Positions 3,755-25,361 of a stretch of DNA of 64,000 nt are shown piece after piece. Every line of letters begins with the position of its first letter. Position 1 is the stretch's first letter. Below the pieces are notes generated by a model. It was given only the letters and a program-made list of their open reading frames with translations. It had not been told where the DNA came from and searched no databases. Source of the stretch: Acinetobacter phage ZZ1; the sequence record NC_018087.3; one strand, 5' to 3'. A program made the position numbers and the translations under genes.

Positions 3755-3990
3755 TTCTTCTCCTTGTATGATTGATACAATCGATATGGCGTCATGAGAC
3801 CAATAAGTAAATAAATTAGTAGATATACTAATGAAGAAAATAGCAATCCTATAACTGGCATTTGACCAATAAAATCGGTTTTGTTTGGACCGAATTTATG
3901 ATCATGATGACCTTCATTAACGTATCGATTCCAACTAAATGTACCTTTCAAATTTGTCTTAACAATTTTAATTAACTTTTTCATTTCCAT
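3751..3990 (-). CDS. small membrane protein (one transmembrane segment)
   Basis: 79 aa with hydrophobic stretch MPVIGLLFSSLVYLLIYLLIGLM. Confidence 0.45.
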   Translation of the reverse strand: MEMKKLIKIVKTNLKGTFSWNRYVNEGHHDHKFGPNKTDFIGQMPVIGLLFSSLVYLLIYLLIGLMTPYRLYQSYKEKK

Positions 3991-5249
3991 AACTCCAAAT
4001 ATTTGGTTTCTAAATCTTCTGGCACAAAGAAATGGCTTGCAAAAAATGCGTCCATACCTGTGACAAGATTTCGATCTTCACGAATAGACATACCACATGC
4101 TTTGTCACCAATAATCCATGAGCCAATGATCGGATAATATCCATCGTGCGGTTGAATTTCATGCCATTGTTGGTACATATAGCCCCAATGATCATATTCA
4201 GGTACTTTGTGAGAACCCGGAGCCAAATGACTAAGCTCTTCGCCAGAACAAAAATGCGAACGATAGATGTTTGAACCTTCGCGGCCATGAATTGCTTTCT
4301 TAGCATATTGACCCGATTTTGGATGATGATTCCCATCAAAACTCGCCAATAAATTAGGGTGATTAGGGAACATTTCCCATAACTTAATAAGCATTGCTTT
4401 GTTTGAAAGCAGCATTTTCCATGCGGGTTCCATCCAACGAGTGTTAGTACAGTCAAGAATGTCAGAACCAAATTTCTCTTCAGTCATCCATTCCCAAGGA
4501 TAAAGTTTAAAACAATTTTTGATCTCTTGGTCTTGAAGATCGATAAACGATTTAGTTTCAGGGCCTGTGCCAATACGTTCTTTCAAAAGACCAATATCTT
4601 GCATTTGCAATTCTTTAACAGATAAACCAGCACGAAGTGCAGAATCCATCAAATAAACTAAATTACCAAAGTCTTCATGACGGAATCCACCGCTTGATGC
4701 AAAATGAACTAATTCGCCTGGTTTAAATCGTTCCTGCCAAACTTCTTGAAGAGTTTCATCAATAAGATTATATTGAATACGCAGATCATCTGGATAATCA
4801 CGACCGTCTGGTAATTTTTGCATACTTTCAATATAATTCCATTGTGCTACAGAACATTCAAGAATTGAAACTGGAGTGTCGCCATTATACTCAAACATTT
4901 TTAATGAGTCATCAGAGCCAAAAGCAAGATCGAAACGTCCATATAATGATTTATCACCACGATTCCAAGATTGTTCAATTAAAGGAATCGAATTTTCATC
5001 CAAATTGAAGTACTCAGGATAATCACCAGATTTGATCATTTGTTCTACCATTGCATAAGACATATCGTGTAAGTCTTGTGATGCAGCTTGAATACGGTCA
5101 ATTTCACTTTCTGACATTCCATATACAACGCCTTCTTGCCAATATGGTGCAGCATCAGGTCCAGAAGGGGCATTCCAATAATTGAAGCCAATTCCCTCTA
5201 AAAGTTCAATGTGATTAGGACGGATTTCGAAATTGCTATGGCGTTTCAT
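3981..5249 (-). CDS. glutathionylspermidine synthetase-like (GspS/YgiC/YjfC family) ATP-grasp protein
   Basis: 422 aa. The motifs RFDLAFGSDD...FEYNGDTP and the overall length are characteristic of the stand-alone synthetase (pre-ATP-grasp plus ATP-grasp) family. Confidence 0.55.
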   Translation of the reverse strand: MKRHSNFEIRPNHIELLEGIGFNYWNAPSGPDAAPYWQEGVVYGMSESEIDRIQAASQDLHDMSYAMVEQMIKSGDYPEYFNLDENSIPLIEQSWNRGDKSLYGRFDLAFGSDDSLKMFEYNGDTPVSILECSVAQWNYIESMQKLPDGRDYPDDLRIQYNLIDETLQEVWQERFKPGELVHFASSGGFRHEDFGNLVYLMDSALRAGLSVKELQMQDIGLLKERIGTGPETKSFIDLQDQEIKNCFKLYPWEWMTEEKFGSDILDCTNTRWMEPAWKMLLSNKAMLIKLWEMFPNHPNLLASFDGNHHPKSGQYAKKAIHGREGSNIYRSHFCSGEELSHLAPGSHKVPEYDHWGYMYQQWHEIQPHDGYYPIIGSWIIGDKACGMSIREDRNLVTGMDAFFASHFFVPEDLETKYLELWK

Positions 5250-6156: not shown

Positions 6157-6498
6157 CTAGATATCAATAGAAGAGAATTGTGCAATAATAGTCAAACCTA
6201 CTGAAATGAAGATAAGACCGACCCATGCACCAAGGTCTAAATTTTGATTAAGCATTATTTTTGCAAGAAATGCAGTAGCAACGGCACCAAGGCCTGACCA
6301 CATAACATACAATATACCAGCTTGCATATATTTTAATGCGATAACACAAGCAATAAATGATCCAGTATATAATATTGCACCAATTATAAGAGGTCCAATA
6401 TTATTAAAACCGTCTGCCTTTGCCATATAAATGGTTGATATTACATCAGTGGCTATTGCTACCAATAGCCACATTACACCTATTTGACTAGATGTCAT
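6157..6498 (-). CDS. small multidrug resistance (SMR/EmrE/SugE-like) family membrane protein
   Basis: 113 aa with four predicted TM helices. TM1 motif IATDVISTIYMAKADGF aligns to EmrE ILAEVIGTTLMKFSEGF, with Asp in place of Glu14. TM3 motif YVMWSGLGAV matches EmrE YAIWSGVGIV. ATGA overlap with the upstream gene. Confidence 0.6.
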   Translation of the reverse strand: MTSSQIGVMWLLVAIATDVISTIYMAKADGFNNIGPLIIGAILYTGSFIACVIALKYMQAGILYVMWSGLGAVATAFLAKIMLNQNLDLGAWVGLIFISVGLTIIAQFSSIDI

Positions 6499-13628: not shown

Positions 13629-13910
13629 TCAATTTTGTTGGGTATGTGCGTGTTTTAAAACAATAGAGTTAATATCCATAGCCAAATCAAAAGGAATTAT
13701 CACTGTTGCACCAGGACCGGCCGCCAAAAGAGTATTTCGCAAATTATAGAATGGCTTAAATGCATACCATGTATTTCTGGCAAAATCATTCTCATGATTG
13801 CCAGACGTCCATGCATTATGAATTAATTGCATCAATTGAATTAAATTTTCATATGTTAAATTCATTTTAAGACTCAAATAAAATACACATTTGTTCTTGC
13901 TCTTGTACAA
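13629..13910 (-). CDS. hypothetical protein
   Basis: 93-aa ORF. Confidence 0.4.
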   Translation of the reverse strand: MYKSKNKCVFYLSLKMNLTYENLIQLMQLIHNAWTSGNHENDFARNTWYAFKPFYNLRNTLLAAGPGATVIIPFDLAMDINSIVLKHAHTQQN

Positions 13911-15202
13911 CCAACGTACAAGAGTTGTTGAGCAAGAGCAGGGTCCGCTTTATGCATACAGGGTGTATACAAAAATACGGAATCAACTGTTGAACCTTGT
14001 GATTTATGAACAGTTCCCACAGGTAACGCTTTAACTTTCAAGAAACTATTACGTAATTTCCACCAATCTTTCCAATTTGGTTTTGGGCCGTGTCCTTTCA
14101 TTGCTTTAAATTCTGATGCCGCACGGGATAAGTAGAACTGAAATTTATTTTGTTCTTGCTCATCTGAAATTACTTGGATTGTTGCGACCATATCAGAATC
14201 GACACCTCTAACATCTAGGGCCCAAGCTTTAATTGGTAATTTTTCTGCAAAAGTTTTGATTTCCAGATTAACTGTAATTTCTTTACAGTCATGAATACGC
14301 ACCAATTCACCATTATTAAAAATAGTTTCTGTAAACTTTTTACCTTCAAATGAGTGTGTCTTAATTAAAGGCTCTTGCATTACTAAAACTTCATGCTTAA
14401 TAAATGGTAATTCAGTTTGATATAAACGCTTACGAATAATAGCATTTAAAGAATCAACTGATTTATTTGTATATGCTAACATACGATTATCAAAAAGCGC
14501 ATCTGCGTCTGGAACAATTTCAAAATACTTTTGCATAAAGTTTGCAACAGATTTTCCAGGGGCATTTAAATTATGCACTCCGGCACCATCAACAAGATTT
14601 TCACGAATCCATGAACCATTGCGAATTTCGGTCGCAACTTTAATAATTGGAGCATTTGAACGCATAACTTCTGTTAAGTTTGCTTGAACAAAATGTTCAT
14701 TAAAAAAGAATGCAGACAATTCAGGAATAGATGAGCCTGGAGCAACCGGGCGGATTTGTGCAATATCACCAAGTCCAATAATTGTACACCAACGTGGCAC
14801 GGATGTCATTAAAATACGGAATAATTCACGATCATACATTGACACTTCATCACAAATTAATACACGACATTCACTAAGATCAGGCGCATCAGATTGTTCA
14901 AATGATGTTTGATCTTCATAATTTGTCGGACTAATTTTAAGTAATGAATGGATTGTATGAGCATCCATTCCGGCAAGCTTTGAAAGAATTTTCTTGGCCT
15001 GGTGTGTAGGTGCAGCAAGCATTACACCTTTTTCGCCCGAATCAATTAAATGATTAATTAAAAATTTTGTTAAAGTTGTTTTACCTGTACCGGCTGGACC
15101 ATTGATAGTAATATGCTTACCTTGCGTTTGCATTACTTCTAAAGCAGCATTAAATGCTTGTTTTTGCCCTTCATTCAAGTCATCAAATGTTAAATCGTTC
15201 AT
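13874..15202 (-). CDS. dda: Dda-like SF1B DNA helicase
   Basis: 442 aa. Walker A INGPAGTGKTT and Walker B-like LICDEVSM, plus a C-terminal SH3-like region. T4 Dda is 439 aa and sits next to dexA. Confidence 0.8.
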   Translation of the reverse strand: MNDLTFDDLNEGQKQAFNAALEVMQTQGKHITINGPAGTGKTTLTKFLINHLIDSGEKGVMLAAPTHQAKKILSKLAGMDAHTIHSLLKISPTNYEDQTSFEQSDAPDLSECRVLICDEVSMYDRELFRILMTSVPRWCTIIGLGDIAQIRPVAPGSSIPELSAFFFNEHFVQANLTEVMRSNAPIIKVATEIRNGSWIRENLVDGAGVHNLNAPGKSVANFMQKYFEIVPDADALFDNRMLAYTNKSVDSLNAIIRKRLYQTELPFIKHEVLVMQEPLIKTHSFEGKKFTETIFNNGELVRIHDCKEITVNLEIKTFAEKLPIKAWALDVRGVDSDMVATIQVISDEQEQNKFQFYLSRAASEFKAMKGHGPKPNWKDWWKLRNSFLKVKALPVGTVHKSQGSTVDSVFLYTPCMHKADPALAQQLLYVGCTRARTNVYFI

Positions 15203-16365: not shown

Positions 16366-17346
16366 TCAGATGTGATTATTGAGTAAATTATAACCTGTTT
16401 TATGTTTAAGCAACTTAACTATTGACGTTGATAATGGTAAACCATATGCAATCTTTTCACAGTCTGTTGCAGAAAGATTTTCAAAACGAATTAAAGCCGG
16501 TTTAATTAATTTTAAATCTTCAATAATCTCTCGCTGACGTTGAATGTCTGCGTACAATTTATCAGATTTGTCTTTATATGCATCAAGTTGTTTAGTTATA
16601 GTTTCAACTTCACTCGTATTGACATCTTCATATGCAGTTGAGGTCATTACACGTAACCCTTTAACAAACTTAGCTAAGAATGTTTTTTGTGCATTAATAA
16701 TAACTTCTTGACTTTTCAACTTGAGTTCAATTCTACCATTGGCTTTAGTTAAGTGCTGCTTTTCAGCTTTAGATGTTTTAGGATGAAGAATTTTCATCGT
16801 ATTCTTATCAATAAGGGCTTGACGTTCACCTAATTTTAGTTGGGCCGCAACTAAATTATTAATGGCACGACGATATTTGTCACACTTATGTGCAGGAATA
16901 ACATATTTTTTAATTAAAACTTGCTCTTTTTTACAAACATGTTTACTTTCATCTAATGAATTAAGACGAATATTTGTATCATAAATTGTACGTTCAAGTT
17001 CCATTAGAGCATGTTCAATTGATGTAATTTTATCAATACGATATTGAATTTCATTATCAATAGTTTTACTTGTTAAATTATTACGCAATGAATTATATTT
17101 CTTCATCACAGGTACAACGTTACCATTAATATAGCCTTTATCATTATCGATACGTTCCATCGTCATCTTTTTTTCTTCGATGGTATCGGAAAAAGGTAAA
17201 CCTGTATAAGCACAATGAGTTTGCAATTTCATATTAATAAATGCTTGCAAAGATAAAGTAAACTCGAGTTTACGTCGAGTTGCGTCTTTTTTCTTTGCAA
17301 TATAGCATTCAGCGAATTTAATATTCTGTTCTACAGTAGTAAACAT
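16366..17346 (-). CDS. hypothetical coiled-coil protein with possible degenerate HNH-like N-terminal motif
   Basis: About 326 aa. Start taken at the first ATG (17346); the track start at 17385 is a TTG. CAYTGLPF...ERIDNDKGYINGNVVPV loosely resembles an HNH motif in which the His is replaced by Arg. The remainder is Lys/Glu/Leu-rich coiled coil. Confidence 0.4.
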   Translation of the reverse strand: MFTTVEQNIKFAECYIAKKKDATRRKLEFTLSLQAFINMKLQTHCAYTGLPFSDTIEEKKMTMERIDNDKGYINGNVVPVMKKYNSLRNNLTSKTIDNEIQYRIDKITSIEHALMELERTIYDTNIRLNSLDESKHVCKKEQVLIKKYVIPAHKCDKYRRAINNLVAAQLKLGERQALIDKNTMKILHPKTSKAEKQHLTKANGRIELKLKSQEVIINAQKTFLAKFVKGLRVMTSTAYEDVNTSEVETITKQLDAYKDKSDKLYADIQRQREIIEDLKLIKPALIRFENLSATDCEKIAYGLPLSTSIVKLLKHKTGYNLLNNHI

Positions 17347-17454
17347 GGCAATATACTCATTTGTTGATAAAGCAATAATACACAAAAGATAAGATTATGT
17401 AAACCTTTAATAATTCGTTTGAATATTTTTTAACCAATCAATAAATGCAAAACT

Positions 17455-17568
17455 CGCTTTTCATAAAAAGCGTGTTATATTATGTATAATGCCCGGGCGG
17501 CCAGCCCAGGGGGGAGATTATATATGTCGGGGATGAATATAAGAGGCGTAGCCTCCGTCCGTAGGACG
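17455..17568 (+). repeat. structured intergenic element, copy A (H1 hairpin, TATAAT-like box, H2 and H3 hairpins) on the plus strand
   Basis: H1 cgcttttcataaaaagcg (17455-17472). tgtataat at 17483-17490. H2 gaggc-gta-gcctc (17543-17555). H3 cgtcc-gta-ggacg (17556-17568). A second copy lies at 60346-60451 on the minus strand and carries compensatory stem changes. Confidence 0.55.
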
Positions 17569-17591
17569 TAATTTGATAATTTAAATGTAAT

Positions 17592-17620
17592 AAAAAAGGA
17601 CGCGAAAGCGTCCTTAATTT
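17592..17620 (-). terminator. rho-independent terminator (ggacgc-gaaa-gcgtcc)
   Basis: aaaaaaggacgcgaaagcgtccttaatttt. On the minus strand the hairpin is followed by TTTTTT, directly after the macro-domain gene stop at 17620. It is symmetric enough to act in both directions. Confidence 0.6.
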
Positions 17621-18063
17621 TATAAGTATAAAACAACAATACCGACATCAGGTGTAACATCCTGGATAATCTCTGCAATTTCATCCCAGTTGCCACCGGC
17701 AATGCCCGCACCAATTTTTGGAATACCTAATACTTTCCCTTTATAATCAACGTTCAGCTTCGTGAATAATTCACGGATGTTTGCATATAGCTGGTTACGC
17801 GGGCATTTGCCGGGTCGATATTGTGTATATCCATTAATAATGTCGCCATAAACTGTAGTGGCTACAGAGTAATCACCCAATTTACCCCAATCACTGTATT
17901 CAGTTCGTTTATCGGCCTCAACTGCAACTGGGAATCGTCTTGCTATTTCTCCTGCTATTCCGGCTCCCATTGTATGGAAACAATTACAACCGTGGACAAT
18001 TGCATCAAAATCGGAATGTTCAAAAGAATCTAACAAATTATGTTGTACATAATACTTAATCAT
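17620..18063 (-). CDS. macro domain protein (ADP-ribose binding/hydrolase fold)
   Basis: 147 aa. AIVHGCNCFHTMGAGIAGEIARRFP and LGIPKIGAGIAGGNWDEI align to the macro-domain signatures (VNAAN...GGGVxxAI and FPxISTGIYG). Confidence 0.55.
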   Translation of the reverse strand: MIKYYVQHNLLDSFEHSDFDAIVHGCNCFHTMGAGIAGEIARRFPVAVEADKRTEYSDWGKLGDYSVATTVYGDIINGYTQYRPGKCPRNQLYANIRELFTKLNVDYKGKVLGIPKIGAGIAGGNWDEIAEIIQDVTPDVGIVVLYL

Positions 18064-18069
18064 TGTTTA

Positions 18070-18258
18070 TTATCCACCTAGGGCCAATAAACCTAATGCT
18101 TGTTTAATTAAATTAATCGCAACATCAGGTTCAATAGTGCCTGTTAATACACCAATAACAGCAGCTAAACCTGCAACACCAATTGCACCAAGGCTTAATG
18201 TTGCACGTGGGTTCTTGCTAAAGTTATCTTTTACTTTTTTAATAGCTTCTTTAGCCAT
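18070..18258 (-). CDS. small membrane protein (62 aa; start revised to the ATG at 18258)
   Basis: MAKEAIKKVKDNF... with a hydrophobic core LSLGAIGVAGLAAVIGVL. GAGGAAG lies upstream of the revised ATG. Confidence 0.4.
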   Translation of the reverse strand: MAKEAIKKVKDNFSKNPRATLSLGAIGVAGLAAVIGVLTGTIEPDVAINLIKQALGLLALGG

Positions 18259-18694: not shown

Positions 18695-19102
18695 TTACCC
18701 ATACCACCGATGTTTAATCGGAAGCTCTCCTGCCGATTGCGCAAGATATTTATTTAAAATATCGGATACTTTCATTGTTGATCTTTCATGATAACATTCA
18801 CGGAGTCTGCAAATACTTGCGCCTAATGCATCTCGCTCTCGAGTTTGTCTGTACAAGGTTTCAAAAGATTGTTGATGTTCATGCATAATCTTTTTCAATT
18901 GACTTTCAATATAAACACTATTACCTCGACGTAAACGGTAACGGTTTAATTCTGTAATCTTTTTGGCCAATCGAGCTATACGCACTTCTGTTTTATGAAT
19001 CTCTTCCTTTACATTTTTAAGTTTAAATGTAAATCCATCAATCATTTCACGGACCAAGAATTTTTTAGTGTCAATTTGAATTACATGAGCTTTATCAAAC
19101 AT
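18695..19102 (-). CDS. hypothetical protein
   Basis: 135-aa ORF. Confidence 0.45.
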   Translation of the reverse strand: MFDKAHVIQIDTKKFLVREMIDGFTFKLKNVKEEIHKTEVRIARLAKKITELNRYRLRRGNSVYIESQLKKIMHEHQQSFETLYRQTRERDALGASICRLRECYHERSTMKVSDILNKYLAQSAGELPIKHRWYG

Positions 19103-19641
19103 TATAATTTCTCCAAATATTGCGTAAGAGTTTTAATTAGAAATTCTACATATTCCCAACGTTTAGGATTAATCCACAATGTTCCCGTTGCAGCATCAGC
19201 ATCATAACAAGTTTCACCTTCAACAGGATATGATCGATTATATTCGATATTTTGTTCTACGGACCAATCTTTTGCAATTTTGGCCCGCATATCATATGAA
19301 AGCTCAATTAAAGAAGCATAAAAGCAAATACCTTCCATTAAGTCAAGTTCAGTCCCATCACTTAATGCAAAATAACCTGATTGATATCTTTCCCAATTTT
19401 TATGATTAAGTTCAATGTAATGAATGATATTTTGCTTATTTTCTAAAAGCATATTAAGGCGTTTAATACACTCTTCCAATTGACTTTTTAAAGTAATATT
19501 CAAGGCAACAACAAGTTCTAAACCTTTAAACTCGCCTGTTAAAGGTACAACAATTGTATCACTAACCCACTTGACTTCTTCAATATCCAAGTGAACATAT
19601 ACTTTTTCAGTTAAACCTAGTTCAGCTTTTGCTTTGTTCAT
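19102..19641 (-). CDS. hypothetical protein, member 1 of the YPxGG...LWLNxxRW paralog family
   Basis: 179 aa. C-terminal SYPVEGE...TLWINPKRWEYVEFLIK. Confidence 0.5.
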   Translation of the reverse strand: MNKAKAELGLTEKVYVHLDIEEVKWVSDTIVVPLTGEFKGLELVVALNITLKSQLEECIKRLNMLLENKQNIIHYIELNHKNWERYQSGYFALSDGTELDLMEGICFYASLIELSYDMRAKIAKDWSVEQNIEYNRSYPVEGETCYDADAATGTLWINPKRWEYVEFLIKTLTQYLEKL

Positions 19642-19643
19642 TT

Positions 19644-20243
19644 TTAATCTTCCAATTTTTTAAGTAAGTTGGTAACATATTCTAAACAGAATTCCACGTA
19701 CAACCAACGGTCTTGATTTAACCATAAAGTGCGAGTTTCACATTCTATTTCAAATTGCCATTGGCCACCTGGAATTGGGTAAGACTCTTCAAATTCAATA
19801 GTTGTTTTCCGTTCAAATTCAAGATTTGAAACAAAATCTGCCGCCATTTTACTACGTAAATTTTTACGTACACCATATAAGTCTACATTATCACAAAGAC
19901 CTTCATCAAGACTAAATCGATACCATGCGTACGCATCAGGCTTTTCGTGAGGGCCTGCAGGCATTTGGATATCGGTCCATTGCGCAAGTTCTTCATCGGA
20001 TGATTCATATGCATCTAATCCACTATCACGCCATGCAATAGCTTTTTCTTCAATTAAAGCCCGATTTTCTAAGACCCACTTTAGTTTGAAAATGATATTT
20101 TCGAGATTTTCTTTATATGTAATATGACCATATGGAAGATAATCAATTTCATCACTTGCAAACGATGTTGTATCTTTAGGGTCACTTAAATGTACGTCAA
20201 TAATTTTAGTTTTGTAATAAACTTTAAAAGTTTTCTGTTTCAT
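19644..20243 (-). CDS. hypothetical protein, member 2 of the YPxGG...LWLNxxRW paralog family
   Basis: 199 aa. C-terminal SYPIPGG...TLWLNQDRWLYVEFCLEY. Confidence 0.5.
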   Translation of the reverse strand: MKQKTFKVYYKTKIIDVHLSDPKDTTSFASDEIDYLPYGHITYKENLENIIFKLKWVLENRALIEEKAIAWRDSGLDAYESSDEELAQWTDIQMPAGPHEKPDAYAWYRFSLDEGLCDNVDLYGVRKNLRSKMAADFVSNLEFERKTTIEFEESYPIPGGQWQFEIECETRTLWLNQDRWLYVEFCLEYVTNLLKKLED

Positions 20244-20322: not shown

Positions 20323-20844
20323 TTAATAAAATGGTGAATATTCGCCCGTATTTAAAAATAAACGAAGTTTCTTTAATACTTCAACTTCGCCTAATCGTGA
20401 TCCCAGGTTGAAAATTGGAATATCATAATCAAATGCGATTCTTAAAGCCATTGCTGTACCACCGGTTAACTTTCCATCTGGTGTCCAACATACTACAAAA
20501 TCTACTGGTGTTTTTAGATCATCACCTAAAACAATTTGAGCATTCCGACCATGCATTTTACGAGCAGAGAAACTACATGCTTTCCAATTAGGATGATATT
20601 TTGCAGCAAAATCAATATGTCTTTGATACAATTCTGGTGTATCCGAATAAAATCCATTATATCCTTGCCAGGGTAACCATAAAACAGTAGATGACGGCGC
20701 ACCATCAAAGAAAGCTTTATCTGCGCCGATTGCTCCGCCTGTATGACAGATATGCCCAGCAGAATCAAGTTCTTTTGAAATTTGTCGCATGATTGCAAGA
20801 ATGTTCATTGGTGTTCGGCGACTACCGATGCCAGCATAATTCAT
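20323..20844 (-). CDS. SLOG/DprA(Smf)-like Rossmann-fold protein
   Basis: About 173 aa. Start taken at the ATG at 20844 (GGAG upstream; ATGA overlap with the upstream gene). NYAGIGSRRTP...HTGGAIGADKAFFDGA matches the DprA/SLOG GSR...SGGAxGxDxxAHxGA signature. Confidence 0.5.
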   Translation of the reverse strand: MNYAGIGSRRTPMNILAIMRQISKELDSAGHICHTGGAIGADKAFFDGAPSSTVLWLPWQGYNGFYSDTPELYQRHIDFAAKYHPNWKACSFSARKMHGRNAQIVLGDDLKTPVDFVVCWTPDGKLTGGTAMALRIAFDYDIPIFNLGSRLGEVEVLKKLRLFLNTGEYSPFY

Positions 20845-21089
20845 ACGATCTCCACATAAGTGCATTTATATTTTCGAGTCCATAATCGCATCATTTGTGA
20901 AAGGTCTCTTGCACTCCATTTTCTCCAACTTGATGGCGAATTTATTACAAAGGGCATTTGACCATTTCTATAATTTGAATATGAAGAATCACTTTTATGT
21001 AATTGAATTAATAAAGTAGCAGAACCATCTGCATTAAGTTTAATACATTTACGATTCTTTTTACTTAACATTGATGTAACACATTTCAT
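20841..21089 (-). CDS. hypothetical protein (82 aa; start revised to the ATG at 21089)
   Basis: GGAGAAGTTT precedes the ATG at 21089. The track start is a TTG. Confidence 0.4.
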   Translation of the reverse strand: MKCVTSMLSKKNRKCIKLNADGSATLLIQLHKSDSSYSNYRNGQMPFVINSPSSWRKWSARDLSQMMRLWTRKYKCTYVEIV

Positions 21090-21129: not shown

Positions 21130-21636
21130 TTATAATACATCAGAAAGATATTGATATGGACCTAAAACAATTTTATCACATTGTGTATCAAACTCACATG
21201 TATCAATAAAGTCGTCCCATTTTTCATCCATTAATTTAATAAAACCTTCTGGACTTCCGCGTCGTTTATAACGCTCAATGTATTCACCTTTTAAAGATCG
21301 ATCTGGATAAACAAGAACATATGGAATACCGACTTTTTGCATTTCCTCTCGGACTTCTGCATGGCTGGATACCATCACCAAATAATTATCGCCCGCGTGT
21401 CGATGAATAATTTCTCGCATGTGTTGGATATAATTGCCTGGAAATTCTGCTTTGTCAAAAGTTGAACTATCCGAGTCATATACAAATGCATCGCCTGGGC
21501 CTGGGACCATACGGAAAATTGCTGTCCCATTTGCACGAACTGGATATAATCCATTCTTTGGTGCATTACCATAAATTGATGATTTACCTGTACCTGGAAA
21601 GGCGCTAATAAATCCAATAGTTTCAATACGTTTCAT
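21130..21636 (-). CDS. P-loop NTPase (putative nucleotide or nucleoside kinase-like)
   Basis: About 168 aa. Start taken at the ATG at 21636, which is preceded by GGGGA. Walker A FPGTGKSS near the N-terminus. Confidence 0.45.
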   Translation of the reverse strand: MKRIETIGFISAFPGTGKSSIYGNAPKNGLYPVRANGTAIFRMVPGPGDAFVYDSDSSTFDKAEFPGNYIQHMREIIHRHAGDNYLVMVSSHAEVREEMQKVGIPYVLVYPDRSLKGEYIERYKRRGSPEGFIKLMDEKWDDFIDTCEFDTQCDKIVLGPYQYLSDVL

Positions 21637-21637
21637 A

Positions 21638-21745
21638 TTATCCCCAAATCCAATAGCCGATACCAAGTCCAATTAAACCGAATGTCGAACATCCTGCAAT
21701 AAATACCGCCAAACAAGCTGACGCAACACCGTCAATATTAAACAT
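21638..21745 (-). CDS. small hydrophobic peptide (35 aa), below the ORF-track cutoff
   Basis: Manual translation gives MFNIDGVASACLAVFIAGCSTFGLIGLGIGYWIWG. TAATG overlap with the upstream gene (21745-21747). Its TAA lies 1 nt before the next ATG (21636). AAGGA upstream. Confidence 0.4.
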   Translation of the reverse strand: MFNIDGVASACLAVFIAGCSTFGLIGLGIGYWIWG

Positions 21746-24836: not shown

Positions 24837-25361
24837 TTAGTAACCCCGGTCTTGACGAGCAAAGTTTTCAGCATTTTTAATGAAGTAGCCTTCAAAAATA
24901 TCTTCAGAAGTAAGACCTAACGCAATGTTCATGTTCAAGAAGAAATGCCATAAGTCTATAATTTCAAAGAAGATTTCACGACGATCATCAGCAGAAAGAT
25001 CTTCAAGTTTTGTATTACGCATATCTAAGTTTTTGGCACGCCATGCTTTCCATACAGAAGTCGCTGCGGATTCGCCATTAGACATACCACCAAACGATGT
25101 AAGCAATTCACGGAATTCATCACTCATTGAATCCCATTGTGTACGCATCCAATCAACTGCTTGGCCTGCGGTTTCGATTTCATTTGGATTTAAGTTCATT
25201 TCGGGTTTTTCTTTTGCAAGTTTAACTTGTAATGAACGTTGCATTTGCATCATAATATCAAGATATTGTTCGCCATTAGAACGGATGCCTTCAGCTGCAT
25301 TACGCGCTTGTTGAGTTGCTTCGTCTGTAACTAATTGTGCGCAAGCGTTAAATTGTGCCAT
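24837..25361 (-). CDS. 56: dCTP pyrophosphatase (MazG-like, T4 gp56-type)
   Basis: 174 aa. Size, the EIIDLWHF-type MazG motif and a C-terminus ...NFARQDRGY resembling T4 gp56. Position matches T4 (between dda and gene 61). Confidence 0.6.
   Translation of the reverse strand: MAQFNACAQLVTDEATQQARNAAEGIRSNGEQYLDIMMQMQRSLQVKLAKEKPEMNLNPNEIETAGQAVDWMRTQWDSMSDEFRELLTSFGGMSNGESAATSVWKAWRAKNLDMRNTKLEDLSADDRREIFFEIIDLWHFFLNMNIALGLTSEDIFEGYFIKNAENFARQDRGY

What the first reader, a model, noticed from the sequence alone, without database searches (positions are those of the whole stretch)
17620..18063. Macro domain protein at the genomic position where T4 carries the ADP-ribosyltransferases modA/modB
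The 147-aa ORF shows the macro-domain glycine-rich signatures (GCNCFHTMGAGIAGEI and IGAGIAGGNW). In T4 the segment between dda and soc/56 encodes the ADP-ribosyltransferases ModA and ModB. Here the same segment encodes a putative ADP-ribose binding or removing domain instead. That fits an anti-defence role, such as reversal of DarT-type DNA ADP-ribosylation or degradation of ADP-ribose-derived immune signals, or regulation of a phage ART encoded elsewhere.
Basis: partly seen in the sequence, partly recalled or inferred. Interest (0 to 1): 0.55.

Follow-up and report, generated by a model that had tools for sequence, protein, structure and literature searches.

The report
Phage Tk.4/AdfM-type macrodomain gene
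This is a real macro-domain gene, but it is the ordinary counterpart of phage T4's own Tk.4 gene (recently named AdfM, needed for T4 to resist DarTG2), so it does not replace T4's ModA/ModB enzymes.

Summary
Window 17620-18063 (minus strand) encodes a 147-aa macro domain: Pfam Macro scores above its gathering threshold, the AlphaFold model has pLDDT 95, and the closest folds are TARG1, Poa1p and DarG. It lies immediately upstream of srd, in the slot where T4 has modA/modB.

The "instead of ModA/ModB" reading fails, because T4 has the same gene elsewhere. Tk.4, between tk and vs, is 38% identical end to end, is the reciprocal best hit and falls in the same PHROG. Homologs occur in about 2,550 phage records, in lineage-specific positions. 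The Acinetobacter phage AM101 ortholog is already annotated "Tk.4".

A 2025 preprint showed that T4 tk.4 (renamed adfM) is required to resist DarTG2.

One nuance: the family has an invariant Gln where DarG and TARG1 have the catalytic Lys, as in SCO6735, which cleaves thymidine-linked ADP-ribose on DNA.

The 98%-identical phage W16 also carries two Alt-type ARTs and a gp30.3/AdfN homolog, but no ModA/ModB.

Verdict: an ordinary, already known gene family; low interest.

The parts
17620..18063 (-). Coding sequence of a standalone 147-aa macro-domain protein, the ortholog of T4 Tk.4/AdfM. Key residues are H24, N27 and Q81 (at the position of the DarG/TARG1 catalytic Lys) and G118/G120/G124/W126 in the diphosphate-binding loop.
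   Evidence: ORF. Pfam Macro above gathering score. phrog_335 E = 6e-53. 38% identity to T4 Tk.4, E = 1e-30, end to end. Reciprocal best hit. pLDDT 95 macro fold. Catalytic columns. dN/dS about 0.05 versus W16.
18073..18079 (-). Shine-Dalgarno-like AGGTGGA, 9 nt upstream of the ATG. It overlaps the end of the preceding small ORF, so the gene is probably co-transcribed with the upstream early genes.
   Evidence: Read directly from the sequence.
17588..17615 (-). Intrinsic terminator 4 nt after the stop codon: 8-bp stem AAGGACGC/GCGTCCTT, 4-nt loop and a T-run.
   Evidence: Terminator scan. The stem is kept by compensatory changes in AM101, GGAGCC/GGCTCC.
16366..17385 (-). Synteny landmark: srd (anti-sigma factor) homolog immediately downstream in the direction of transcription. 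In T4 the gene upstream of srd is modA.
   Evidence: phrog_1400 Srd E = 8e-63. tblastn with T4 Srd E = 2e-17. T4 map.
13874..15202 (-). Synteny landmark: dda helicase homolog.
   Evidence: ORF. Annotated as Dda-like helicase in Henu6, W16 and AM101.
24837..25361 (-). Synteny landmark: gp56 (dCTPase/dUTPase) homolog that closes the dda-56 segment.
   Evidence: tblastn with T4 gp56, 45% identity, E = 4e-51.

Best explanation
The ORF encodes a standalone early-expressed macrodomain enzyme, the Acinetobacter T4-like phage (Twarogvirinae-type, about 98% identical to phages Henu6 and W16) ortholog of T4 Tk.4, now called AdfM (anti-DarT factor Macrodomain).

Proposed mechanism: the host DarT2 toxin ADP-ribosylates thymidines in single-stranded phage DNA and blocks replication. 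The phage macrodomain binds the ADP-ribose through its Gly-rich loops (residues 33-37 and 117-124) and hydrolyses the ribose-thymine bond, which restores replicable DNA.

The chemistry is probably of the SCO6735 type rather than the DarG/TARG1 type. The catalytic Lys is replaced by an invariant Gln81, held in place by Asn27, which positions the distal ribose for water-mediated cleavage.

Shown here: macro fold, orthology to Tk.4, the active-site residue pattern, gene reality and genomic context.
Shown in the literature for homologs: T4 tk.4 is necessary for resistance to DarTG2, and SCO6735 (Gln-type) cleaves dT-ADPr on DNA.
Inferred: this protein has that activity, and DarT2-type defence is its relevant target in Acinetobacter.

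Its place next to srd is a lineage-specific arrangement in a variable early region. It is not a functional swap for ModA/ModB.
For: Macro fold and family.

Orthology to T4 Tk.4:
- 38% identity over the full length, E = 1e-30.
- T4 Tk.4's only hit in the window and in the whole W16 genome is this ORF.
- The window ORF, T4 Tk.4, AM101 'Tk.4' and KVP40 gp0092 all match the same part of phrog_335.
- The AM101 ortholog (68% identity) is annotated Tk.4 and has the same srd-adjacent position.

Function of the T4 ortholog: tk.4 was the single transposon-screen hit on a DarTG2 host, and a clean knockout sensitised T4.

Similarity to DarG: the only PADLOC hit is DarG at 1.3e-7, and the best NCBIfam hit is antitoxin DarG.

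Active site:
- Gln81 aligns with DarG Lys80, TARG1 Lys84 and SCO6735 Gln85.
- Asn27 aligns with SCO6735 Asn27.
- G118 and G120 align with SCO6735 G126 and G128.
- In SCO6735, Q85A and N27S abolish activity, and the enzyme cleaves dT-ADPr DNA and rescues DarT toxicity (PMC9411070).

Context:
- W16 also has a gp30.3/AdfN (anti-DarTG1) homolog at E = 1e-37, which is the same paired toolkit as T4.
- DarTG systems are catalogued in A. baumannii defence hotspots (PMC11723918).
Against: - No experiment exists for this protein or for any Acinetobacter-phage ortholog.
- For T4 AdfM only the genetic requirement is shown. DNA de-ADP-ribosylation is the authors' inference.
- Identity to T4 Tk.4 is only 38%.
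- The DarG/TARG1 catalytic Lys is absent. The SCO6735-specific Val25 is Gly25 here. SCO6735's DNA-contacting Lys34 aligns with Ala34, and its Lys89 lies in a loop that is three residues longer in SCO6735 than here.
- The protein is acidic (pI 5.5), unlike SCO6735 and TARG1 (pI 9-10). PhiKZ AdfM, which does act on DNA, is equally acidic, so this point is weak.
- Whether Acinetobacter DarTG systems are of the DarT2 (thymidine) type was not checked.
- SCO6735-type enzymes also act on U-ADPr RNA and on protein substrates, so DNA may not be the only or the main substrate.
Confidence: 0.65

Rival explanations
1. It is a broad or different-substrate de-ADP-ribosylase. Its main targets would be ADP-ribosylated RNA (uracil-linked or phosphate-linked) or Glu/Asp-linked protein ADP-ribose laid down by other host ART-based defences, with DarT2-modified DNA being at most one substrate.
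For: The Gln-type relative SCO6735 hydrolyses protein-linked ADPr and uracil-ADPr RNA (PMC13036486). RNA-targeting ART defences against T-even phages exist (CmdTAC, PMC11618068). The family lacks SCO6735's DNA-contacting lysines.
Against: In T4 the only phenotype found so far for tk.4 is on DarTG2. No data link Tk.4-type proteins to RNA or protein substrates. The CmdTAC paper mentions macrodomains only in its reference list and no phage macrodomain.
Confidence: 0.15
2. It processes small soluble ADP-ribose derivatives: ADP-ribose-1''-phosphate (Poa1p-like phosphatase, the source of the 'phosphatase' annotation), O-acetyl-ADP-ribose, or Thoeris-type signals such as gcADPR or His-ADPR. In that way it would detoxify metabolites or quench immune signalling.
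For: The best single-sequence PDB hit is yeast Poa1p (E = 5e-7), with a shared H-x-C-N-C motif in which Poa1p His23 aligns with His24. Iyer et al. 2022 argue that phage Macro, NADAR, SLOG and Nudix proteins mainly target diffusible ADPr derivatives. A SLOG/DprA-like gene lies 2.3 kb upstream. In KVP40 the ortholog sits beside pseT, an RNA-repair gene.
Against: With a family profile, the Gln-type DNA-acting enzymes outrank Poa1p. Poa1p Phe152 aligns with Ala122, and Poa1p's position matching Gln81 is Ser. The T4 genetics point to DarTG2. No anti-Thoeris phenotype has been reported for Tk.4.
Confidence: 0.12
3. It is an eraser or regulator of the phage's own ADP-ribosylation, removing or limiting the marks made by the two Alt-type ARTs.
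For: The 98%-identical phage W16 encodes two Alt-like ARTs (PF03496, E = 4e-12 and 3e-11). T4 likewise combines ARTs with Tk.4.
Against: Alt- and Mod-type enzymes modify arginine, and TARG1/ALC1-class macrodomains are not known to cleave Arg-ADPr (general knowledge). No linkage or co-variation between the ART and macro genes was seen. The macro gene also occurs in phages of many other genera.
Confidence: 0.04
4. It is a positional and functional replacement of ModA/ModB: the macro gene took over the modA/modB slot and their host-takeover role.
For: The gene lies directly upstream of srd, where T4 has modA. The phage has no ModA/ModB homolog.
Against: T4 has both ModA/ModB and an ortholog of this gene. 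There is no sequence similarity between the two, and the chemistry is opposite. The gene's position differs between lineages, as expected for a variable early region.
Confidence: 0.02

Closest known systems
T4 Tk.4 = AdfM (anti-DarT factor Macrodomain; bioRxiv 10.1101/2025.11.20.689424)
   Same: Standalone macro domain of about 150 aa in a T4-like myovirus. It is 38% identical over the full length, is the reciprocal best hit and falls in the same PHROG. It shares the H-G-C-N-C, Y-T-Q and IGAGI-x-x-G-N-W motifs, including Gln at the DarG Lys80 position. Both sit in an early-gene region on the early strand.
   Different: Genomic slot: T4 has it between vs and tk, whereas here it is directly upstream of srd. 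The host is Acinetobacter rather than E. coli. This phage lacks ModA/ModB. No functional data exist for this ortholog.
Streptomyces coelicolor SCO6735 and Bacteroides BT1257 (Gln-type ALC1-like macrodomains; PDB 5E3B, 2FG1)
   Same: These are the best profile-to-PDB hits (E = 5e-13 and 8e-15). Gln occupies the catalytic-Lys position, and the Asn27, His24, G126 and G128 equivalents are conserved. SCO6735 cleaves dT-ADPr on DNA and neutralises DarT.
   Different: They are bacterial and basic (pI 9-10 versus 5.5). SCO6735's Val25 is Gly25 here. Its loop after the catalytic Gln is three residues longer, and the Lys34 and Lys89 DNA contacts are not conserved. Identity is only about 22-24%.
DarG antitoxin macrodomain of DarTG2 (PDB 5M3I, 5M31)
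   Same: Same fold (Foldseek E about 5e-9, TM 0.75). It is the only PADLOC hit and the top NCBIfam hit. It has the same presumed substrate, thymidine-linked ADPr on ssDNA.
   Different: Gln replaces the catalytic Lys80. There is no C-terminal DarT-binding domain (147 aa versus about 340). There is no adjacent darT gene. The score is far below the NCBIfam equivalog cutoff, 27 versus 250 bits.
PhiKZ gp104 'AdfM' (chimallivirus DarG2-like macrodomain; Cell Rep 2026, PMC13309987)
   Same: A phage-encoded standalone macrodomain that counters DarTG2. It is acidic and also lands in phrog_335.
   Different: It is Lys-type (N23/K78, motif FPTK) and only about 18% identical to this family (hhalign probability 95%). 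It is imported into the phage nucleus. Its DNA de-ADP-ribosylation has been shown in vitro.
Yeast Poa1p (ADP-ribose-1''-phosphate phosphatase; PDB 6LFQ-6LFU) and human TARG1
   Same: These are the top fold matches (TM 0.76-0.83). Poa1p shares the H-x-C-N-C motif.
   Different: Poa1p has Ser and TARG1 has Lys at the Gln81 position. TARG1 Asp125 and Poa1p Phe152 both align with Ala122. Poa1p carries a large insertion.

Membership tests
Macro domain superfamily (Pfam PF01661) | Sequence match to the curated profile above its gathering score, over the whole domain | tested here: met
   29.4 bits against a cutoff of 22, E = 8.5e-7, profile positions 1-118 of 118
Macro domain superfamily (Pfam PF01661) | Three-layer alpha/beta/alpha macro fold | tested here: met
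   AF2 pLDDT 95.3. Foldseek probability 1.00 and TM 0.75-0.83 to TARG1, Poa1p and DarG, and 205 PDB chains with E <= 0.001.
Macro domain superfamily (Pfam PF01661) | ADP-ribose-binding loops: Asn in loop 1 followed by G-x-G, and a Gly-rich diphosphate loop 2 | tested here: met
   N27, G33, G35, G118, G120 and G124 are invariant or nearly invariant in 58 homologs
Macro domain superfamily (Pfam PF01661) | Binds or hydrolyses ADP-ribose derivatives | not testable with these tools
   Needs biochemistry
T4 Tk.4 / AdfM family (T4-type phage macrodomain) | Full-length homology and reciprocal best hit with T4 Tk.4 | tested here: met
   38% identity, E = 1e-30, residues 1-145 against 1-149. Tk.4's only hit in the window and in W16 is this ORF.
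T4 Tk.4 / AdfM family (T4-type phage macrodomain) | Standalone macro domain of about 150 aa with the HGCNC...YTQ...IGAGI-x-x-G-x-W signature | tested here: met
   Alignment A3. Same PHROG region for T4, AM101, KVP40 and the window.
T4 Tk.4 / AdfM family (T4-type phage macrodomain) | Confers resistance to DarTG2 | not testable with these tools
   Shown genetically for T4 only
T4 Tk.4 / AdfM family (T4-type phage macrodomain) | T4-like synteny (vs, Tk.4, tk); not a defining feature, recorded for completeness | tested here: not met
   Here and in AM101 the gene is upstream of srd. The ORF beside vs in W16 is not a macro domain.
DarG antitoxin (DarTG2) | Catalytic lysine (Taq and Mtb DarG Lys80, motif FPTK) | tested here: not met
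   It aligns with the invariant Gln81, motif YTQ
DarG antitoxin (DarTG2) | C-terminal DarT-binding domain (protein of about 330-350 aa) and score above the NCBIfam equivalog cutoff | tested here: not met
   147 aa, matching only positions 10-138 of the 338-position model; 27.3 bits against a cutoff of 250
DarG antitoxin (DarTG2) | Operon partner darT | tested here: not met
   The neighbours are a small hydrophobic ORF and srd. No ART domain was found in the flanking ORFs.
SCO6735/BT1257 Gln-type ALC1-like macrodomains | Gln at the catalytic-Lys position, locked by Asn27 | tested here: met
   Q81 and N27 align with SCO6735 Q85 and N27. Their roles are described in PMC9411070.
SCO6735/BT1257 Gln-type ALC1-like macrodomains | Val or Ile at position 25, and an extended mobile loop carrying Lys89 (features specific to the SCO6735 subclass) | tested here: not met
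   Gly25 here. The loop after the Gln is 3 residues shorter, and K34 aligns with A34.
Poa1p-type ADP-ribose-1''-phosphate phosphatase | Residues probed in the Poa1p structures: His23, Ser30, Phe152 | tested here: inconclusive
   His23 aligns with His24 (kept), Ser30 with Thr31 (conservative) and Phe152 with Ala122 (lost). The Poa1p paper is not in the library.
T4 ModA/ModB ADP-ribosyltransferases (the positional comparator) | Sequence homology to ModA or ModB | tested here: not met
   tblastn with T4 ModA and ModB against the window and the whole W16 genome: ModA gave only chance-level hits (E > 0.5) and ModB gave none at E <= 1

The most novel reading that the evidence does not exclude
Tk.4-type phage macrodomains, including T4 AdfM, may not be DarG mimics. 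They may form a separate Gln-type (SCO6735-like) clade with a water-mediated mechanism and a broader substrate range covering dT-ADPr DNA, U-ADPr RNA and Glu-ADPr protein. In this Acinetobacter phage, which lacks ModA/ModB, the enzyme may chiefly counter a nucleic-acid- or protein-targeting ART defence in Acinetobacter that is not DarT2 and has not yet been described.
Probability: 0.12. Interest if true: 0.4.

Novelty: already known. Interest (0 to 1): 0.12.

Why it matters
It matters little as a discovery. Macro domains occur in about 41% of myoviruses (PMC9503650). T4's own copy has long been annotated, and it now has a published anti-DarTG2 role. The practical value is in annotation: the 'phosphatase' or 'hypothetical protein' labels on this gene in Acinetobacter phages Henu6 and W16 should read 'Tk.4/AdfM-like macrodomain, putative anti-DarT2 ADP-ribosylglycohydrolase'. 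That is relevant when choosing therapeutic A. baumannii phages against strains carrying DarTG. One minor mechanistic point deserves a biochemical test: the Tk.4 clade carries Gln, not Lys, at the catalytic position, so it resembles SCO6735 more than DarG or PhiKZ AdfM.

Tried and rejected
- **Second macro gene in T4's slot.** I tested whether the phage keeps a second macro gene beside vs. The 143-aa ORF there in W16 has no Macro hit and belongs to phrog_4957.
- **ModA, ModB, Soc and Mrh.** tblastn against the window and the whole W16 genome found nothing above chance.
- **GC-rich intergenic stretch, 17473-17595.** There is no Rfam family at gathering threshold and no tRNA or tmRNA. Fold z-scores are modest (-3.15 and -2.68) and conservation in AM101 is only partial. 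I left it as a side note.
- **Net charge as a test of DNA binding.** Rejected as uninformative, because PhiKZ AdfM acts on DNA and is equally acidic.
- **Poa1p catalytic mechanism.** The paper is not in the library, so I used only the mutant names in the PDB titles.
- **Phage macrodomains in other papers.** The CmdTAC paper mentions none. The two recent hydrolase-specificity papers tested no phage enzyme.

Full report
**Observation.** The ORF is at window 17620-18063 on the minus strand: ATG start, 147 aa. It contains both quoted motifs, at residues 25-40 and 117-126. It is a genuine gene. Against the 98%-identical phage W16, 12 of 13 nucleotide differences are at third codon positions, and dN/dS is about 0.05. 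An AGGTGGA ribosome-binding site lies 9 nt before the ATG. A strong intrinsic terminator follows 4 nt after the stop, and its stem is maintained by compensatory changes in phage AM101.

**Is it a macro domain?** Yes.
- Pfam Macro (PF01661) matches over its full length, at 29.4 bits against a gathering score of 22.
- A profile of 58 homologs hits solved macrodomains: BT1257 at 7.6e-15, SCO6735 at 5.3e-13, Poa1p at 2.5e-12, TARG1 at 3.7e-11 and M. tuberculosis DarG at 2.5e-10.
- The AlphaFold2 model is very confident (pLDDT 95.3, pTM 0.90). Its best structural matches are TARG1, Poa1p and the DarG macrodomains, with TM 0.75-0.83.
The protein aligns with macro profiles, and the Asn and Gly positions (N27, G118, G120, G124) are invariant in the family.

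**What phage, and what is known about the gene?** The window is about 98% identical to Acinetobacter phages Henu6 and vB_AbaSt_W16, which are T4-like myoviruses of about 167 kb. tblastn finds homologs of the ORF in 2,549 phage records, including T4 itself. The T4 hit is gene tk.4, annotated 'contains A1pp phosphatase motif', between vs and tk.
- The two proteins align end to end at 38% identity, E = 1e-30.
- T4 Tk.4's only hit in the window and in the complete W16 genome is this ORF.
- The window ORF, T4 Tk.4, the AM101 ortholog (68% identical and already labelled 'Tk.4' in GenBank) and KVP40 gp0092 all match the same part of phrog_335.

This is the Tk.4 ortholog.

**Position.** T4 reads dda, dda.1, srd, modA, modB ... 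soc, segF, 56. The window reads dda, three small ORFs, srd, macro ... gp56 homolog. So the macro gene sits in the modA slot, and neither the window nor W16 has any ModA/ModB homolog.

The inference of a replacement does not hold. T4 has Tk.4 in addition to ModA, ModB and Alt. The location of the macro gene is lineage-specific:
- srd-adjacent in Acinetobacter phages, both here and in AM101, a Lazarusvirus of the Twarogvirinae;
- between vs and tk in T4 and in Karamvirus;
- beside pseT in KVP40.

The ORF occupying the T4 slot beside vs in W16 is unrelated. The coincidence reflects gene shuffling in a variable early region.

**Function.** A 2025 preprint (HIDEN-SEQ, bioRxiv 10.1101/2025.11.20.689424) reports that tk.4 was the single significant transposon-screen hit when T4 infected a DarTG2-expressing host. 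A clean deletion sensitised T4 to DarTG2. The authors renamed the gene adfM. They infer, but do not show, that it removes ADP-ribose from DNA. In line with this, the only PADLOC hit for the window protein is DarG (1.3e-7), and the best NCBIfam hit is antitoxin DarG.

**Mechanistic nuance.** The protein is not a DarG member.
- It has 147 aa and no DarT-binding domain.
- It scores 27 bits against an equivalog cutoff of 250.
- It has no darT neighbour.
- The catalytic lysine (DarG Lys80, TARG1 Lys84) aligns with a family-invariant Gln81, also present in T4 Tk.4.
- TARG1's Asp125 aligns with Ala122.

The same Lys-to-Gln change defines the SCO6735/BT1257 subclass, which also gives the best profile hits. 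In SCO6735, Gln85 and Asn27 are essential. The enzyme cleaves thymidine-linked ADP-ribose on DNA, rescues DarT toxicity, and is proposed to use a water-mediated mechanism (PMC9411070). The window protein keeps the equivalents of H24, N27, Q85, G126 and G128. It lacks SCO6735's Val25, its longer loop and its lysine DNA contacts.

The other protein called AdfM, PhiKZ gp104, is a Lys-type, DarG-like macrodomain (N23/K78) with DNA de-ADP-ribosylation shown in vitro (PMC13309987). It is only about 18% identical to this family. The Tk.4-type and PhiKZ-type AdfM proteins are thus distinct sub-clades.

**Wider toolkit.** The near-identical phage W16 encodes two Alt-type ARTs (PF03496), a gp30.3/AdfN homolog (the NADAR-type anti-DarTG1 factor, E = 1e-37) and a Nudix protein. 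These genes lie outside the window. A DprA-like/SLOG gene lies 2.3 kb upstream of the macro gene. [quoted passage not shown] The same survey found macro domains in about 41% of myoviruses (PMC9503650). DarTG systems are catalogued in A. baumannii (PMC11723918). I did not determine whether they are of type 1 or type 2.

**Rivals.**
- A broader or different substrate (RNA or protein ADP-ribose) is plausible, because SCO6735 acts on those too.
- Small-molecule processing (Poa1p-like phosphatase, O-acetyl-ADPr, Thoeris signals) is suggested by the shared HxCNC motif with Poa1p and by Iyer et al.'s proposal. Neither has support from the T4 genetics.
- Erasing the phage's own Alt marks is unlikely, because those are arginine linkages.
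- Functional replacement of ModA/ModB is contradicted by T4 having both.

**Verdict.** The gene belongs to a known, widespread and recently characterised family, so interest is low. The only mildly new point is that the Tk.4 clade is Gln-type (SCO6735-like) rather than Lys-type (DarG-like), which a simple hydrolase assay with N27A and Q81A mutants could test.

Noticed in passing
window 17473-17595 (between the macro gene and srd): A GC-rich stretch (52% GC against 34% for the window) bracketed by two terminator-like hairpins, at 17596-17615 and 17455-17472. It matches no Rfam family and no tRNA. Fold z-scores are -3.15 on the plus strand and -2.68 on the minus strand. It is only partly conserved in AM101. 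It contains a conserved ATATAAT on the gene strand that could be a promoter -10 element for srd.
   Followed up: partly
window 18070-18258 (-): A small hydrophobic ORF immediately upstream of the macro gene. The listed ORF is 81 aa, but the true start is probably Met20, giving 62 aa. It matches phrog_37935 at E = 2e-37 and is not annotated in the W16 record.
   Followed up: partly
window 20323-20865 (-): A standalone 180-aa DprA-like/SLOG protein (phrog_768, E = 2e-54; Pfam DNA_processg_A is below threshold). A 'DprA' gene is also annotated about 4.4 kb upstream of the AM101 ortholog. SLOG domains are proposed to sense or degrade cyclic ADP-ribose signals, so this gene may be part of the same NAD/ADPr counter-defence toolkit.
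   Followed up: partly
window 19102-19641 and 19644-20243 (-): Two adjacent ORFs of 179 and 199 aa. Both match phrog_11598, have no Pfam domain and have no known function. They look like a tandem duplication.
   Followed up: no
window 16366-17385 (-): The srd homolog is 339 aa against 248 aa in T4. It also matches HNH-endonuclease PHROGs (phrog_3118, E = 9e-21), and AM101 annotates its counterpart as an HNH endonuclease. The listed TTG start is doubtful, because a promoter-like site overlaps it and the Srd profile match begins at residue 18.
   Followed up: no
window 21130-21672 (-): A 180-aa ORF with a Walker-A-like GTGKSS motif (phrog_4182, unknown function, no Pfam hit). It may be a small kinase or NTPase.
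   Followed up: no
W16 genome outside the window: L004 13055-15142, 15202-17352 and 19815-20291: The near-identical phage carries two tandem Alt-type ADP-ribosyltransferase genes and a gp30.3/AdfN (anti-DarTG1 NADAR-type) homolog, but no ModA/ModB. That is T4's ADP-ribose toolkit minus the Mod enzymes.
   Followed up: yes
window about 3981-5249 and about 6157-6498 (from the W16 annotation): The W16 record labels these genes 'glutathionylspermidine synthase' and 'quaternary ammonium compound-resistance protein QacE'. These are unusual annotations for a lytic phage. I did not verify them.
   Followed up: no
protein family level: PHROG 335 ('phosphatase') lumps together the Gln-type (T4 Tk.4-like) and Lys-type (PhiKZ gp104-like) phage macrodomains. 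Both are now called AdfM in the literature, although they probably differ in catalytic mechanism.
   Followed up: partly
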